DNA from: an uncultured Nitrososphaerales archaeon
GTDB taxonomy: Archaea > Thermoproteota > Nitrososphaeria > Nitrososphaerales > Nitrososphaeraceae
Direction of reading: 5' to 3'
Assembly (NCBI GenBank): GCA_963709405.1
Contig: CAVPXM010000030.1
Span: forward strand, 1-64,000
Length of the DNA: 64,000 nt
Shown here piece by piece: positions 42,849-64,000 of the stretch (positions are counted from its first letter, which is position 1; every line of letters starts with the position of its first letter). The translations under genes and the position numbers were made by a program. Under the pieces are notes generated by a model. It saw nothing but the letters and a program-made list of their open reading frames with translations. It searched no databases and had not been told where the DNA came from.

Positions 42849-43856
42849 CAGGTACCAGAATCAGAGTACATTTTAGATTCAATAAGAAATCTTTTTTTCT
42901 GTATCTTACTAAGTGACAATTGTCTCTTCCTCACTGGATGCAGCACGTATGCCATGCTGCAGACCTACTCATACTGTTTGTGTTATTCATGCGCATCACT
43001 TCTGTAAAACGCTTAATCTCAGCTATATCCTAGATGAATATTACTGCTTAGGTATGTGCAAAAATGCACAGGTTAACGCAAAATATTCACATATCGTAAT
43101 CATCACCAATTATTCTGCATCTTTTCTCAAATATAGATAAGAAGAATAGATATAACAATGCGTAATAATGGTCAGGCAATATTTTTCCAAGCCTATTATA
43201 GTGTTTCCGATAAACAATCCACAATAAATTCTAAATTTGCTCACGAAAATGCACGTGTATTCTAAAGACCTGCCTGTCGTGTTTTGTATTTAGCCATCCA
43301 TTATTTACCTTATAAGGATTATTCGAGATTGCGTGGATCGTTTCTACGTTAAATTACACTATGCCATATCCAAGGCGGGTTTCCCGTGTTCCGCCTAGTC
43401 TATATCAACATATCTGTTTGGAATTTGAGTTCAAACCTAGCATAAATCTAATCATTTGCTATTTTATAAAAGACGATTCTGGGAATAATGCAGATAAAAA
43501 GTAATTGTAAATACACTTCGGCTTAGTCTCAGTCCTCATGAGAGAATCAATCATCGTGTTACGCACAAAAACAAGATCAATAAAGATGGATGTCAACTCT
43601 AAATGAAAAACTATAATGACCTAAAATTCTATGATAGAGATTGATCTATGAATAGGCTAAATTACCTATCAGGATCTTTCAATTTGGTTCTGCATTTATA
43701 TGGGTTTGAAGCGCAAGGCGATATTTATGCTATTCCAAGACGATGACCTGTTTGAAAGATGATAATAACAATAAAACAATAATTTGTTATCGGATATTGT
43801 TATTTAGAGAAGTAGCATATGTATTTTTAAGATGGTATTAAGTAAGTAAGTAAAGC

Positions 43857-57094: not shown

Positions 57095-57988
57095 GAACCC
57101 ATCCCAAAAATAGAGACATATAGCTTGAGAGCGTTTTGTTCATAGGTGTGGCTTACAGTAGAGTCAAATGCCTTCCAACTGTCAAAAGAATCCCAGATGA
57201 GTTATGGGATGAGATAAGGTTTATACTTCCATCAGAAAAACCAGCGAATACCATAGGACGTCCGGCAGTATCATTTAGGAAGGTACTGGATTGCATTCTA
57301 TATGTCTTAAGAACTGGATGTCAATGGAAGATGTTGCCAAAGGAGTATGGGTCTGGTTCGACATGTCATAGACGATTCCAACAATGGTCCATATCTAAGA
57401 TATTTCAAAGATTGTGGACTAGACTGCTAAAAGTGTATGATGGTATAGTAGGCATTAGTTGGAGATGGCAATCACTTGATAGTATATCTGTAAAGGCACC
57501 TTTAGGGGGGAGATGACTGGGCCTAATCCTACAGCCAGAGGAAAGTTAGGAACAAAACGTCATGTATTAACTGATAGACAAGGTATTCCATTATCTGTTA
57601 TTATAACTGCGGCTAATACGCATGATATGAAGGCTGCTTTAAACACACTGGATAATATCGTAGTTCAAAGACCGTCTTCTAAGAAGTATAAAGAGAAACA
57701 GAACCTTTGTCTTGATAAGGGATATGACTTTCGGGAGATTGAAAACGAAGTTATCAAGAAAGGATACCTGACCAAATATTCGACATAGAGGAGAACAATC
57801 AGTAATAAAGGGTAGTAATCATCATCGTCATGCTAAAAGAAGATGGGTTGTAGAAAGAACCAACTCCTGGCATAACAAGTTCAGGAAATTTTTGGTTAGA
57901 TACGAAAAGAAGCTAGAAAGCTATTTTGCGTTAGTATGTTTAGGCTGTTGTATTGTTATCTACAGGAGGATAATTTTTGGATAGGCTC
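57095..57988 (+). mobile_element. IS5-family element (IS427/IS1031-like), 894 bp
   Basis: TTA on both flanks (57092-57094, 57989-57991); imperfect inverted termini GAACCCATCCCAAAAAT / ATTTTTGGATAGGCTC; LRTGCQW..LP, DS..VKAPLGG junction on a G6 run, DKGYD, RWVVERT. Confidence 0.93.
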
Positions 57989-61484: not shown

Positions 61485-62384
61485 CTACATTAGGTAGTTA
61501 GAAATTAATAGTTCTGTATGCCCCATACGCCTTAATGCATTCGAATTAATAGCTCTTAAAGTATTAACTTTTTTTATATTTTCAAAGTCATAATATAATT
61601 CTTTGACCAATGAGGTGTAGGAATTGCTAAGAAGGACCATACATTTTCTATCGTCGAGTTTCTTAAACAATCGTGCAAGCTCATATTGATCTTCATCCGT
61701 AAAACCGTTATCCGTATATCTCGTAAAGTTAGCAGTTCTGCTCATGGGGTCATATGGCGGATCTAGATAAATAAAGTCGCCCTCTCTTGCATTTTCGAGC
61801 AGTATTCGTTTATAATCGCCCAGTTCTATATGAATCTGTGATCCTTGAAGAACTTTACTAATGTTTCGAAGGTTCCCTTGATCGCATATACATGGATTTT
61901 TGTATCTACCCATAGGAACATTGAATTTACCCTGTCTGTTTACTCGATAGAGACCGTTGTAACATGTTTTGTTAAGTGTGATAAATCTTGCAGCCCTTTC
62001 GATGACATTCCTCTTGAGTGGAATAGCATCATCACGTAGAGAATAATAAAACTTAGCAGGAGATTTCTTATAGTCCTCTTCGTAGATGATTAAAATCTCA
62101 ATTAACCTCTCAACATTTGACTTCACGACGATATACGCATTAATTAGTTCTTCATTTAAATCTGATAGGAATGCGTCAAAATGAATATTATTTTTATTGA
62201 TCGTATGCAAGAATACGGCGCCGCCACCCAGAAAAGGTTCGAAGTATCTTCTGAAGTATGTTGGAATGAAGGTATCTATTCTAGATAGTAGTTGCGACTT
62301 TCCTCCAGCCCATTTTACGAATGGATACATTTTGTTGAAGTTTATAGGTAAAGCCTCAATTGATTGATCCATATTTTGGCCCAC
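61485..62384 (-). CDS. Dam-type (D12 class) DNA adenine methyltransferase
   Basis: KWAGGKSQL, YFEPFLGGGAV, CYNGLYRVN..G.FNVP.G.Y, YLDPPY, LLSNS, ELLISNY. Confidence 0.93.
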   Translation of the reverse strand: MGQNMDQSIEALPINFNKMYPFVKWAGGKSQLLSRIDTFIPTYFRRYFEPFLGGGAVFLHTINKNNIHFDAFLSDLNEELINAYIVVKSNVERLIEILIIYEEDYKKSPAKFYYSLRDDAIPLKRNVIERAARFITLNKTCYNGLYRVNRQGKFNVPMGRYKNPCICDQGNLRNISKVLQGSQIHIELGDYKRILLENAREGDFIYLDPPYDPMSRTANFTRYTDNGFTDEDQYELARLFKKLDDRKCMVLLSNSYTSLVKELYYDFENIKKVNTLRAINSNALRRMGHTELLISNYLM

Positions 62385-63184: not shown

Positions 63185-63664
63185 CTAACCGTCATATAAT
63201 AATATATTGCGACTTACTGGCTCATCATTGCTGGAACTAAGCAATGTTATATCTGGAATCGTCATTAATAATTTAGCGATCTCATCTTCTTTAGCAAGCA
63301 GCAGTATCTTCTTAGATACTGTACTAACTTCATCATTCAACGATCTAATAACACGAAGGCAGCCATTAATTCTATAATCATCATGTCCTTCCAGTTTATC
63401 CATATCTCTTTTGGTAAATGTACTGGTACGATCGACATCGGAGGCATCTATACCCTTCATAAGCGTAATGCTATGTACCTTATTCTTTAGTTTAGTTCTC
63501 ATTCTTACAAGTGCGGCTCTATGCCTAACAATGTCTCGTAGTTCCATTATTCTCTTGTTTGGAACATAGCATTAAGCTATGTATCCTCCTCTCAGTAGAT
63601 CAGCTAGTTTAACCGCATCAAGTTTGTCAGTCTTTATTTTAGCTGAGGCAATACTCTTGTCTTA
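63185..63664 (-). pseudogene. IS110-family transposase remnant, disrupted at TTA 63662-63664
   Basis: IASAKIKTDKLDAVKLADLLRGGYIA*CYVP..MELRDIVRHRAALVRMRTKLKN...LLMTIPDI; internal stop; C-terminal catalytic domain absent. Confidence 0.88.
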
Positions 63665-63688
63665 GAACCTATCCGAAAAGTAGTGGAG
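63665..63688 (+). mobile_element. IS5-type terminal sequence GAACCTATCCGAAAAG directly upstream of the array
   Basis: Follows TTA exactly where IS110 coding similarity stops; resembles both termini of the IS5 at 57095-57988. Confidence 0.65.
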
Positions 63689-63972
63689 GTTGTAATTTGA
63701 CTGATATAGGATTGAAACACTCTTCATCTCAGATTGTAGGTGTGTATGTTATTGCGTTGTAATTTGAGTAATATAGGATTGAAACAACGACTAGGCGGTG
63801 TTCAAGCGTTCCCGCCTAGATGGTTGTAATTTGAGTAATATAGGATTGAAACAACGACTAGGCGGTGCACGCCAATCCCCGCCTAGATGGTTGTAATTTG
63901 AGTAATATAGGATTGAAACTTAATACATGCATACTAGGTATAGGTATGGATAAACAGTTGTAATTTGACTAA
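63689..63972 (+). CRISPR. Mini CRISPR array: four full 30-nt repeats, one interrupted repeat, four 37-nt spacers; no leader, no cas genes in window
   Basis: Repeat GTTGTAATTTGAGTAATATAGGATTGAAAC at 63756, 63823, 63890; 2-mismatch variant at 63689; 16-nt partial at 63957; exact 67-nt period; 3' ATTGAAAC typical of Cas6-processed type I-B/I-A/III repeats. Confidence 0.93.
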
Positions 63973-64000
63973 GAACGTATCCGAAAATTCCAACTCTTCT
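63973..64000 (+). mobile_element. Start of a second IS5-type element inserted into repeat 5 (runs off window)
   Basis: TAA followed by GAACGTATCCGAAAATTCC; 14/15 identical to the terminus at 63665. Confidence 0.6.

What the first reader, a model, noticed from the sequence alone, without database searches (positions are those of the whole stretch)
63662..64000. Mini CRISPR array apparently carried inside an IS5-type transposon end
Seen: IS110 coding similarity ends exactly at TTA (63662-63664). GAACCTATCCGAAAAG follows, and repeat 1 starts only 24 bp from that junction, leaving no room for a leader. The IS5 at 57095-57988 has similar termini (GAACCCATCCCAAAA, GAGCCTATCCAAAAA) and a TTA duplication. 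No cas gene lies in the preceding 63 kb. Established: IS1031-like IS5 elements duplicate TWA, and ATTGAAAC repeats are Cas6 substrates. Inference: the array arrived as cargo of an IS5-ended element, i.e. a mobile guide cassette that would borrow host Cas6/Cascade in trans. I know mini-arrays from viruses, Tn7-like CASTs and IscB loci, but not as IS5 cargo in ammonia-oxidising archaea.
Basis: partly seen in the sequence, partly recalled or inferred. Interest (0 to 1): 0.85.

Follow-up and report, generated by a model that had tools for sequence, protein, structure and literature searches.

The report
Insertion-sequence-borne mini CRISPR array, multicopy
The small CRISPR array at the end of the window is one of about fifteen scattered, partly decayed copies of the same short array that were apparently spread around this ammonia-oxidising archaeon's genome as a passenger of an IS5-type jumping gene.

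Summary
A remnant of an IS110-family gene stops at 63663. A 24-nt IS5-type terminal repeat follows (63665-63688), then four 30-nt repeats with 37-nt spacers. A fifth repeat is cut after 13 nt by TAA plus a second IS5-type end in the same orientation (63973).

Past 64000 the second IS is truncated at contig position 64599. There is no outer inverted end and no 5' half of the IS110 gene.

The core idea survives in another form. The same repeat occurs at 15 loci on 10 contigs, always as 1-4 repeats, never a long array. The spacers come from about seven shared families. Eleven loci start with the same IS end, and nine of those are preceded by TAA or TTA. All six copies of the adjoining IS ("IS-A") abut the same truncated repeat, and their far flanks are unrelated.

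I read this as a three-ended IS5-family composite carrying a mini-array, now non-autonomous and decaying. All six IS-A transposase genes are broken.

A type I-B cas6-cas8b-cas7-cas5-cas3 operon lies on another contig. Its own 5-repeat array has a 23/30-identical repeat, and no cas1 or cas2 was found. Use in trans is therefore possible but unshown, and no spacer target was found.

Other first-stage notes on this genome had flagged sister copies.

The parts
63249..63663 (-). Remnant of an IS110-family transposase gene, cut at both ends. It forms the left flank of the element.
   Evidence: 94% identical over 416 nt to C54:44565-44980, which lies inside an intact 352-aa IS110-family gene. The ORF 63185-63547 gives a weak PF01548 hit (E=0.0024).
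63662..63664 (.). TTA directly before the IS end. The two T's belong to the IS110 sequence; the A does not match the paralogue.
   Evidence: In this genome, 116 of 131 IS5-type ends are preceded by TAA or TTA, against 5% of all genome trinucleotides.
63665..63688 (+). Solo 24-nt IS5-family terminal repeat ('X2-type' end) facing into the array. It occupies the place of a leader.
   Evidence: 23/24 identical to the consensus found at 10 other array loci. That consensus is 23/24 identical to the far (X2) end of IS-A.
63689..63718 (+). CRISPR-type repeat 1 (2 mismatches to repeats 2-4).
63719..63755 (+). Spacer of family A, present in 6 loci.
   Evidence: mean pairwise identity 93%.
63756..63785 (+). 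Repeat 2.
63786..63822 (+). Spacer of family B (GC-rich hairpin), loop variant 1.
   Evidence: Nearest loop variants are in C63:192366, C50 and C97.
63823..63852 (+). Repeat 3.
63853..63889 (+). Spacer of family B, loop variant 2.
   Evidence: Nearest loop variant is in C63:258410.
63890..63919 (+). Repeat 4.
63920..63956 (+). Spacer of family D, shared with C50, C97 and C55:124012-124048, and in part with C49.
63957..63969 (+). First 13 nt of repeat 5, cut at the TAA that forms repeat positions 14-16.
   Evidence: The same break point is seen at 9 of the 15 loci.
63970..63972 (.). TAA: repeat positions 14-16 and the target triplet of the IS insertion.
   Evidence: GAC is the commonest triplet before the TWA at IS5-type ends in this genome (24 of 131).
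63973..64000 (-). 'X1' end of IS-A, an IS5-family element. It continues to contig position 64599, where it is truncated. Transposase fragments lie on the minus strand.
   Evidence: 91% identical to the full IS-A copy on C97 over 860 nt. DDE_Tnp_1 fragments score E=3.5e-6 and 7.7e-4. No open frame in any IS-A copy exceeds 129 aa.
57095..57988 (+). Another IS5-family element of a different subfamily, with TTA on both sides. It serves as a comparator for end sequence and target duplication.

Best explanation
The array is one copy of a non-autonomous, three-ended IS5-family composite.

Layout: [24-nt X2-type end] - [mini CRISPR array] - [repeat cut at GAC|TAA] - [IS-A: X1 end, transposase gene, X2 end].

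Origin: an IS5-family element (IS-A) landed in the TAA at positions 14-16 of a type-I-B-like repeat. GAC+TWA is this IS group's favoured target. A solo copy of the IS's other end sits directly in front of repeat 1. The outer two ends therefore form an inverted pair.

Inferred mechanism: a DDE transposase acting on that outer pair moved array and IS together (about 1.1-1.3 kb) to new TWA sites. All IS-A transposase genes are now broken, so any recent movement needed a transposase in trans. The likely source is the related, still intact IS-B.

After insertion the copies decayed. The IS was lost or truncated, the left end was lost, and recombination between repeats deleted spacers. This left 1-4 repeats per locus.

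The window copy is such a decayed one. It sits in an IS110 remnant whose other half is gone, and its IS-A is cut at contig position 64599.

The array is most likely a passenger with little or no present function. Processing by the genome's Cas6 and type I-B Cascade in trans is possible but not shown.
For: Shown:
- The repeat occurs 37 times at 15 loci on 10 contigs, never more than 4 per locus.
- The 33 spacers parsed fall into about 7 families shared between loci, in a consistent order: A before B, B before C/F/G, with D or E last.
- 11 of 15 loci begin with the same 24-nt IS end. 9 of those 11 are preceded by TAA or TTA, against 5% background.
- That end is 23/24 identical to IS-A's far end.
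- All 6 IS-A copies, plus one degenerate remnant, abut the repeat at the same base and in the same orientation.
- Where the far end of IS-A is present (C97, C55, C21), the DNA beyond it is unrelated between loci and is not the rest of a repeat. Array and IS therefore arrived together rather than by repeated insertions.
- The IS-A tree groups the copies with terminal spacer D (C50+C97 support 0.99; C30 joins at 0.63). It also groups two of the three copies with terminal spacer E (0.97).
- Two loci carry the related IS-B at the same base. They share array peculiarities, which suggests a second composite lineage.
- The two structurally complete composites (C55:150266-151581 and C63:38134-39263) have TAA on both outer sides.
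- One IS-less copy (C21:283326) has TTA on its left. On its right, the truncated repeat is followed by TAT and then TTA, one base away from the TAA+TTA expected after IS loss.
- IS family: DUF4096 plus DDE_Tnp_1.
- All 6 IS-A genes are broken, while IS-B has an intact 282-aa frame on C58.
- Repeats are no better conserved (91% mean pairwise identity) than spacer A (93%) or IS-A (94-98%).
- Contigs from two runs bridge the left junction.
Against: - No empty site was recovered for any locus. Same-genus genomes are only 72-81% identical in the flanking genes and lack the element. The transposed unit and its duplication are therefore inferred, not seen.
- The matching TAA flanks of the two intact composites are uninformative, because the inner junction is also TAA.
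- Four loci lack the left IS end. C50 and C97 are 98% identical, yet their left flanks diverge 2 nt before repeat 1, and C50 lacks the last 37 nt of IS-A. At least that duplication did not use the terminal repeats as they now stand.
- Five or six loci have no IS on the right and no inverted end within 3 kb, apart from an IS-B fragment 2.3 kb from C49. Each needs a secondary loss.
- Support for rooting the IS-A tree between the D and E groups is weak (0.63-0.73).
- A metagenome contig from a relative has the same truncated last repeat, but different spacers and no IS end. The truncation could therefore predate the IS.
- The hairpin spacer's loop varies far more than neutral decay of the family predicts.
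Confidence: 0.6

Rival explanations
1. Functional mobile guide cassette. The dispersed mini-arrays are transcribed, cut by the genome's Cas6 and loaded into its adaptation-less type I-B Cascade/Cas3. The IS-borne copies would then supply or amplify a fixed set of guides against viruses or rival mobile elements, or would soak up Cas proteins as RNA decoys.
For: - The genome has cas6-cas8b-cas7-cas5-cas3 on C46. No cas1, cas2 or RAMP was found, and the only cas-linked array has 5 repeats.
- The cas-linked repeat is 23/30 identical to the mini-array repeat, including 13 consecutive bases that end one base short of the 3' end.
- Relatives in the same family carry ordinary arrays (10 repeats in G012) with repeats whose 3' 20 nt equal the common form of the mini-array repeat.
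- In the hairpin spacer the stems are invariant in 12 copies while the loop varies. That pattern is hard to get from neutral decay.
Against: - There is no leader or recognisable promoter. The IS end abuts repeat 1.
- No protospacer was found in the genome itself.
- Exact scans of IMG/VR with cores of 3 of the 7 spacer families found nothing. A blastn search against 50,697 phage records also found nothing.
- Repeats diverge as fast as the dead IS, and the last base of the 8-nt handle differs in 8 of 37 repeats.
- The repeat differs at 7 of 30 positions from the only cas-linked repeat.
- The element was not found in 6 same-genus genomes or in 200 sampled family genomes, where only the 3 best candidates per genome were scored.
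Confidence: 0.2
2. IS homing. The arrays were scattered first by some other route. IS-A and IS-B then inserted independently, again and again, into the favoured GAC|TAA of the last repeat. This would be comparable to the Tn7-like elements reported to target CRISPR repeats.
For: - GAC+TWA is the preferred target of these IS elements: 116 of 131 ends follow TWA, and GAC is the commonest preceding triplet at 24 of 131.
- Two different IS types sit at the same base.
- A contig of run X19 shows spacer D followed by an uninterrupted repeat, so an uninterrupted state exists somewhere (table 7).
Against: - All IS-A insertions have one orientation and always sit in the last repeat, never in an internal one.
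- None has the 3' remainder of the repeat on its far side.
- No full-length IS-A copy lies away from an array. The only other IS-A-like piece is a 167-nt internal fragment on C38.
- The IS-A tree follows the terminal spacer.
- This reading leaves the dispersal of the arrays, and their IS-type left end, unexplained.
Confidence: 0.06
3. Dispersal without transposition. Segmental duplication, or recombination between the very many IS copies of this genome, scattered fragments of one old IS-riddled array.
For: - The genome carries at least 131 IS5-type ends.
- The C50/C97 pair and the window copy have boundaries that do not coincide with IS ends.
- The window locus has lost the other half of the IS110 gene, which needs a deletion or rearrangement.
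Against: - In 11 loci homology starts exactly at base 1 of the IS end, and 9 of these have a TWA flank. Flanks are unrelated immediately outside.
- Recombination between dispersed IS copies would carry flanking IS bodies along, not a solo 24-nt end.
Confidence: 0.1
4. Assembly or binning artefact: a collapsed or chimeric join of an IS and an array.
For: The genome is a 100-contig draft, 91% complete with 3.7% contamination. At least one contig (C46) starts with about 950 nt of foreign GC-rich sequence.
Against: - Contigs from two other runs bridge the junction.
- The same architecture recurs at 11 loci with different flanks.
- 20 runs from 13 studies hold part of the stretch.
Confidence: 0.02

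Closest known systems
Passenger-carrying IS derivatives: composite transposons, transporter IS (tIS) and mobile insertion cassettes (MICs).
   Same: DNA that is not needed for transposition lies between IS-type terminal inverted repeats, is multicopy, is flanked by the IS family's target triplet, and can depend on a transposase supplied in trans.
   Different: The passenger is a CRISPR array, not a protein gene. The unit has three ends: a solo 24-nt end plus a whole IS. Most copies have since lost one end.
Virus-borne mini-CRISPR arrays (PMC6858448, seen as search listing and abstract start; review PMC11656645, passages read).
   Same: Arrays of 1-4 spacers without cas genes, carried by a mobile element and dependent on the host's Cas proteins.
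   Different: In that case the repeats are identical to the host's and the spacers target related viruses. Here the repeat is only 23/30 identical to the host's cas-linked repeat, no target was found, the carrier is an insertion sequence, and the array is amplified to 15 chromosomal loci. The terms 'insertion sequence', 'IS element' and 'solitary' have no occurrence in the review's main text.
Stand-alone CRISPR arrays on integrated elements of Thaumarchaeota (PMC6563490, passages read).
   Same: Same phylum. Type I-B-like arrays without cas genes are carried by mobile elements and thought to use host Cas proteins in trans.
   Different: Those are long arrays (69 and 96 spacers) on two integrative-conjugative elements, single-copy and still acquiring spacers. 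The IS-like transposons described there have 1-2 genes, and the passages I read mention no arrays on them.
Tn7-like transposons that target CRISPR repeats (PMC11837452, search listing and abstract start only).
   Same: A transposon end lies inside a CRISPR repeat at a fixed position.
   Different: Different transposon family and target-selection machinery. Here the far-side flanks show that array and IS moved together rather than the IS homing repeatedly.
CRISPR repeat-like regulatory mini-arrays in cas loci (10.1101/2023.03.03.530964, search listing and abstract start only).
   Same: Very short arrays with conserved 'spacers'.
   Different: Those lie inside cas loci and partly match cas or toxin promoters. 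These are dispersed and IS-linked, and blastn-short found no partial self-match longer than 18 nt.

Membership tests
CRISPR array (type I-B-like repeat class) | Three or more direct repeats of 23-47 nt at a regular period, separated by spacers of similar length. | tested here: met
   4 full repeats of 30 nt, 37-nt spacers, period 67 nt, plus a 13-nt fifth copy.
CRISPR array (type I-B-like repeat class) | Repeat related to a repeat that is linked to cas genes. | tested here: met
   23/30 identical to the 5-repeat array between cas6 and cas8b on C46. Relatives G012 and G023 carry ordinary arrays with repeats sharing the 3' 20 nt. Rfam gave no significant hit (CRISPR-DR9, E=0.7).
CRISPR array (type I-B-like repeat class) | Spacers are unique, and at least some match mobile elements. 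| tested here: not met
   All four spacers recur at other loci, and two of them are 88% alike. No match was found outside the arrays in the genome, in IMG/VR for 3 of 7 spacer families, or in the phage collection.
CRISPR array (type I-B-like repeat class) | AT-rich leader with a promoter before repeat 1. | tested here: not met
   A 24-nt IS end abuts repeat 1 in 11 of 15 loci.
CRISPR array (type I-B-like repeat class) | Transcribed and cut into crRNAs by Cas6. | not testable with these tools
   Only assembled contigs of RNA libraries were available. They cover array variants but cannot show transcription or processing.
IS5-family composite / passenger-carrying IS | IS-family terminal repeats in inverted orientation at both outer ends. 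| tested here: inconclusive
   Not met at the window locus: IS-A is truncated at contig position 64599 and no inverted end lies within 3 kb. Met at 2 of the 11 loci that keep the left end (C55:150266-151581 and C63:38134-39263).
IS5-family composite / passenger-carrying IS | 3-bp TWA target duplication flanking the whole unit. | tested here: inconclusive
   A TWA precedes 9 of 11 left ends. Both intact composites have TAA on both sides, but the inner junction is also TAA. No empty site was found.
IS5-family composite / passenger-carrying IS | DDE transposase of the IS4/IS5 type, either encoded in the unit or available in trans. | tested here: met
   IS-A fragments hit DDE_Tnp_1, and IS-B hits DUF4096. 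IS-A genes are broken in 6 of 6 copies, while IS-B has an intact 282-aa frame.
IS5-family composite / passenger-carrying IS | Several copies at unrelated sites, with homology starting at the terminal repeat. | tested here: met
   15 loci on 10 contigs. Left flanks are unrelated apart from two that lie in other repeat families.
Mobile-element-borne mini-array used against rival elements | Repeats (nearly) identical to the host's cas-linked array. | tested here: not met
   7 of 30 positions differ from the only cas-linked repeat found. The genome is 91% complete, so a second cas locus could be unassembled.
Mobile-element-borne mini-array used against rival elements | Spacers match relatives of the carrier or other mobile elements. 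| tested here: not met
   No match to any IS or other sequence of the genome. None in the viral collections searched. Four spacer families were not searched in IMG/VR.

The most novel reading that the evidence does not exclude
An insertion sequence has captured a CRISPR mini-array and amplified it to about 15 loci in a soil ammonia oxidiser that keeps a type I-B interference module but no adaptation genes. The IS-borne copies would then be the cell's main working guide set, or an RNA decoy that titrates Cas6/Cascade. The hairpin 'spacer', with invariant stems and a hypervariable 11-12-nt loop, would be a diversifying recognition module rather than an ordinary spacer.
Probability: 0.15. Interest if true: 0.85.

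Novelty: new variant of a known kind. Interest (0 to 1): 0.55.

Why it matters
CRISPR arrays are known as cargo of viruses, plasmids, integrative elements and Tn7-like transposons. My four literature searches and the two texts I read in part turned up no case of a plain insertion sequence carrying and multiplying a mini-array. This is not proof that none is in print.

If the copies are expressed, this would be a route by which guide RNAs spread and are dosed without Cas1-Cas2. It would apply in an abundant soil nitrifier: 20 metagenome runs from 13 studies hold part of this stretch.

If they are dead passengers, the family still has practical value. It shows that CRISPR repeats can hold a preferred IS target (GAC+TWA). 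It also warns that orphan 'arrays' with shared spacers in draft genomes may be transposon debris, which matters for spacer-based virus-host linking.

Tried and rejected
1. There is no inverted end, no TTA and no IS110 5' half. The 5' 300 bp of the IS110 gene occurs only on C54, C42, C44 and C5.

2. I searched for empty sites.
- Within the genome, left flanks are unique, except that C30 lies in an IS110 copy and C63:258537 lies in a repeat family that stops 42 nt short of the junction.
- In 6 same-genus genomes the flanking genes are only 72-81% identical, and the array part matched nothing outside this genome.

3. Sampling 200 genomes of the family gave only two weak hits, both ordinary arrays with related repeats. 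Only the 3 best candidates per genome were scored.

4. Exact scans of public collections gave the following.
- The junction of IS end and repeat 1 was absent from genome contigs and from metagenome contigs.
- The exact repeat was absent from genome contigs.
- The exact repeat occurred in one metagenome contig, L044.
- Records of this genome may be left out of these collections by design.

5. Protospacer search.
- blastn-short of the 7 spacer families and the 4 cas-linked spacers against the genome found nothing outside the arrays beyond 14-18-nt matches.
- IMG/VR exact scans for families D, E and the hairpin B found 0 hits.
- The phage collection gave no match.
- Families A, C, F and G were not searched in IMG/VR.

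6. RNA evidence. Two RNA-library runs were laid.
- X17 gave 3 contigs of 151 nt. One joins spacer A directly to spacer D and runs into the IS end. One matches the C49 locus.
- X19 gave 66 pieces, mostly 90-95% alike, so these come from relatives.
- These are assembled contigs of libraries that can contain DNA. They show neither transcription nor processing, and I draw nothing from them or from parts without cover.

7. Folding 63665-63990 as RNA gave z = -3.6, driven by pairing between the two hairpin spacers. It was not informative about function.

8. Rfam gave no family at a meaningful score.

9. I considered a cryptic inverted end at the right of the IS-less copies. None was found with up to 4 mismatches within 3 kb, except IS-B ends and chance-level hits.

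10. I considered whether the repeat is under extra constraint. It is not visibly so: repeats 91% against spacer A 93% and IS-A 94-98%.

11. Supplementary files of the papers were not opened. Supplementary tables of PMC6563490 (lists of IS and arrays) could bear on whether IS-linked arrays were seen before.
Full report
WHAT IS THERE

The window is positions 1-64000 of a 257,784-bp contig (C30) of a 4.83-Mb draft genome. The draft has 100 contigs, is 91% complete and has 3.7% contamination. It encodes archaeal AmoA, so it is an ammonia-oxidising archaeon.

Reading left to right, the finding contains the following.
- An IS110-family gene remnant on the minus strand. Its similarity to an intact paralogue on C54 stops at 63663.
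- TTA at 63662-63664.
- A 24-nt IS5-type terminal repeat at 63665-63688.
- Four 30-nt repeats separated by 37-nt spacers, at 63689-63956.
- The first 13 nt of a fifth repeat, at 63957-63969.
- TAA, and from 63973 a second IS5-type end in the same orientation as the first.

Contigs of two other sequencing runs bridge the 63664/63665 junction.

WHAT LIES BEYOND 64000

The contig continues. The second end belongs to an IS5-family element that I call IS-A. Complete copies are about 985 bp. Fragments hit DDE_Tnp_1, and the N-terminal ORF of its relative IS-B hits DUF4096.

In the window locus IS-A aligns to a full copy only as far as contig position 64599. After that an unrelated repeated gene family starts. 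No inverted end lies within 3 kb. The missing 5' 300 bp of the IS110 gene occurs only on other contigs.

THE KEY RESULT: A FAMILY

The repeat occurs 37 times (up to 6 mismatches) at 15 loci on 10 contigs. Each locus has 1-4 repeats, and there is no long array anywhere. A crude scan for other arrays found one more, described under the cas genes below.

The 'spacers' are not unique. The 33 that I could parse fall into about seven families shared between loci.
- A occurs in 6 loci.
- B, a GC-rich hairpin, occurs in 12 copies.
- C, D, E, F and G make up the rest.

The families keep a consistent order: A before B, B before C/F/G, with D or E last. All four spacers of the window array recur elsewhere.

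The ends of the family are equally regular.
- 11 of 15 loci begin with the same 24-nt IS end directly abutting repeat 1.
- 9 of those 11 are preceded by TAA or TTA.
- Genome-wide, 116 of 131 IS5-type ends follow TAA or TTA, against 5% expected from trinucleotide frequency. GAC is the commonest triplet before the TWA, at 24 of 131.
- The repeat contains GAC-TAA at positions 11-16. In 9 of 15 loci the last repeat is cut exactly there by an IS end. IS-A does this six times, plus one degenerate remnant. The 79%-identical IS-B does it twice.

WHY I THINK ARRAY AND IS MOVED TOGETHER

1. Every full-length IS-A copy in the genome, 6 of 6, abuts the truncated repeat at the same base and in the same orientation. 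The only other IS-A-like piece is a 167-nt internal fragment on C38.
2. Beyond the far end of IS-A, the DNA is neither the rest of a repeat nor shared between loci. These are therefore not six insertions into whole repeats.
3. The 24-nt end in front of repeat 1 is 23/24 identical to IS-A's far end and faces it. The outer two ends thus form an inverted pair around array plus IS.
4. The IS-A tree follows the terminal spacer. C50+C97 (spacer D) group at 0.99 support, with C30 (D) joining at 0.63. C21+C40 (spacer E) group at 0.97. The root is weakly placed.
5. The two loci with IS-B share array peculiarities. They look like a second composite lineage.
6. One IS-less copy, at C21:283326, has TTA on its left. 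On its right, the truncated repeat is followed by TAT and then TTA. This is one base away from the TAA+TTA footprint expected if a composite inserted at TTA and the IS later left.

All six IS-A transposase genes are broken, in different ways in different copies. IS-B has the usual two overlapping frames, and one copy has a single intact 282-aa frame. Its end matches the array's end at 18 of the first 19 positions. Trans-mobilisation by IS-B is my inference.

WHAT SPEAKS AGAINST, OR STAYS OPEN

- No empty site was recovered, so no transposition event is seen directly.
- The matching TAA flanks of the two complete composites prove little, because the inner junction is TAA too.
- Four loci lack the left end.
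- C50 and C97 are 98% identical. Yet their left flanks diverge 2 nt before repeat 1, and C50 lacks the last 37 nt of IS-A. That duplication did not use the ends as they now stand.
- Five or six loci have no IS on the right.
- A metagenome contig from a relative (L044) has the exact repeat twice and the same truncated third copy. Its spacers are different and it has no IS end. The truncation could therefore be older than the IS association.
- A contig of run X19 shows spacer D followed by an intact repeat (table 7).

CAS GENES AND POSSIBLE USE

The only cas locus found is on C46. It reads cas6, then a 5-repeat array with 4 unique spacers, then cas8b, cas7, cas5 and cas3. The 5' end of cas6 is lost where the contig starts with about 950 nt of foreign GC-rich sequence.

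Cas1, Cas2 and RAMP profiles found nothing, and there is no second set of I-B genes. With 91% completeness this is not proof of absence.

The cas-linked repeat is 23/30 identical to the mini-array repeat. The identity includes a 13-base run that ends one base before the 3' end. Two genomes of the same family have ordinary arrays with still closer repeats. Processing in trans is therefore plausible.

Several points count against a present function.
- There is no leader.
- No target was found.
- Repeats (91% mean pairwise identity) are no better kept than spacer A (93%) or the dead IS-A (94-98%).
- The element was not found in the 6 same-genus or 200 family genomes sampled.

AN UNEXPLAINED FEATURE

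In the 12 copies of hairpin spacer B, the flanking repeats and both stem arms are almost invariant. Twelve loop columns are highly variable, with column entropy up to about 1.9 bits. Copies whose neighbouring spacer A is 100% identical differ at 4-5 of 11 loop positions.

Uniform neutral decay does not give this pattern. Three explanations remain open.
- An ancestral longer array held many B-type spacers taken from a diverse target family with a conserved hairpin. Different copies then kept different ones after repeat-repeat deletions. The window array keeps two.
- Selection acts on the stem.
- The loop is hypermutable.

One free-standing relative of the hairpin lies at window 43372-43397, in a 700-bp intergenic gap.

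COMPARISON WITH WHAT IS KNOWN

Mechanistically the nearest things are passenger-carrying IS derivatives: composite transposons, tIS and MICs. These names are recalled and were not looked up.

On the CRISPR side the nearest are the following.
- Virus-borne mini-arrays (PMC6858448, listing only; review PMC11656645, passages read).
- Stand-alone arrays on integrative elements of Thaumarchaeota (PMC6563490, passages read).
- Tn7-like elements that target CRISPR repeats (PMC11837452, listing only).

None of the texts I read mentions arrays on IS-type elements. My searches found no such report. That is a limited search, and supplements were closed.

VERDICT

The array is IS-linked and mobile, with confidence about 0.6 for the composite model.
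- The locus-specific prediction is wrong.
- A guide function is unshown, at about 0.2.
- It is a new variant of known kinds (mobile-element-borne mini-arrays and passenger-carrying IS).
- Interest is moderate to good.

Noticed in passing
window 63786-63822 and 63853-63889; also C21:283386, C40:8989, C49:18113, C50:68612, C55:151454, C59:10962, C63:38194, C63:192366, C63:258410, C97:2870: The hairpin 'spacer' B has invariant stems and flanks in 12 copies but a hypervariable 11-12-nt loop. The loop diverges far more than the neighbouring spacers or the IS do. This is unexplained.
   Followed up: partly
window 43372-43397 (minus strand): A free-standing relative of the hairpin spacer lies in a roughly 700-bp ORF-poor gap, with the same stem arms, a different loop and no repeats around it. 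A second relative at C63:86052 lies about 450 nt from a mini-array and is preceded by a degenerate repeat end.
   Followed up: partly
G000 contig C46:907-7567 (locus L012): This is the only cas locus found. It reads cas6, a 5-repeat array with 4 unique spacers inside the operon, then cas8b, cas7, cas5 and cas3, with no cas1, cas2 or cas4 after cas3. The first ~950 nt of the contig are GC-rich and look foreign, and they cut off the 5' end of cas6.
   Followed up: partly
C46:1537-1572 versus C30:156439-156456: The second spacer of the cas-linked array has an exact 18-nt match inside contig C30 (E=0.001). This could be a partial self-target. I did not examine it.
   Followed up: no
L044:1915-2070 (metagenome contig, minus strand): A relative carries two exact copies of the repeat plus the same truncated third copy. 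Its two spacers are different and it has no IS end.
   Followed up: partly
C63:192260-192500: This mini-array copy has a 19-nt stretch (the truncated repeat plus the next 7 nt) repeated, with one mismatch, about 40 nt upstream of its IS end. One of its repeats has a short palindromic insertion.
   Followed up: no
whole genome: The load of IS5-family elements is very high. There are 131 ends within 2 mismatches of one 15-nt terminus, from at least five subfamilies, and 116 are flanked by TAA or TTA. IS110-family copies occur on C54, C44, C42 and C5.
   Followed up: partly
C63:208930-209616: About eleven tandem copies of a 62-nt unit, probably coding. They turned up in the crude array scan.
   Followed up: no
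window 61485-62384 (minus strand): A 299-aa ORF whose translation contains a DPPY motif. From memory, this motif is typical of N6-adenine DNA methyltransferases. I did not check it against a profile.
   Followed up: no
L013:972 (= C30:63972), run X19: A contig of an RNA-library run continues after the TAA with the rest of the repeat instead of the IS end. A version of spacer D followed by an uninterrupted repeat therefore exists in some population or locus (table 7).
   Followed up: no
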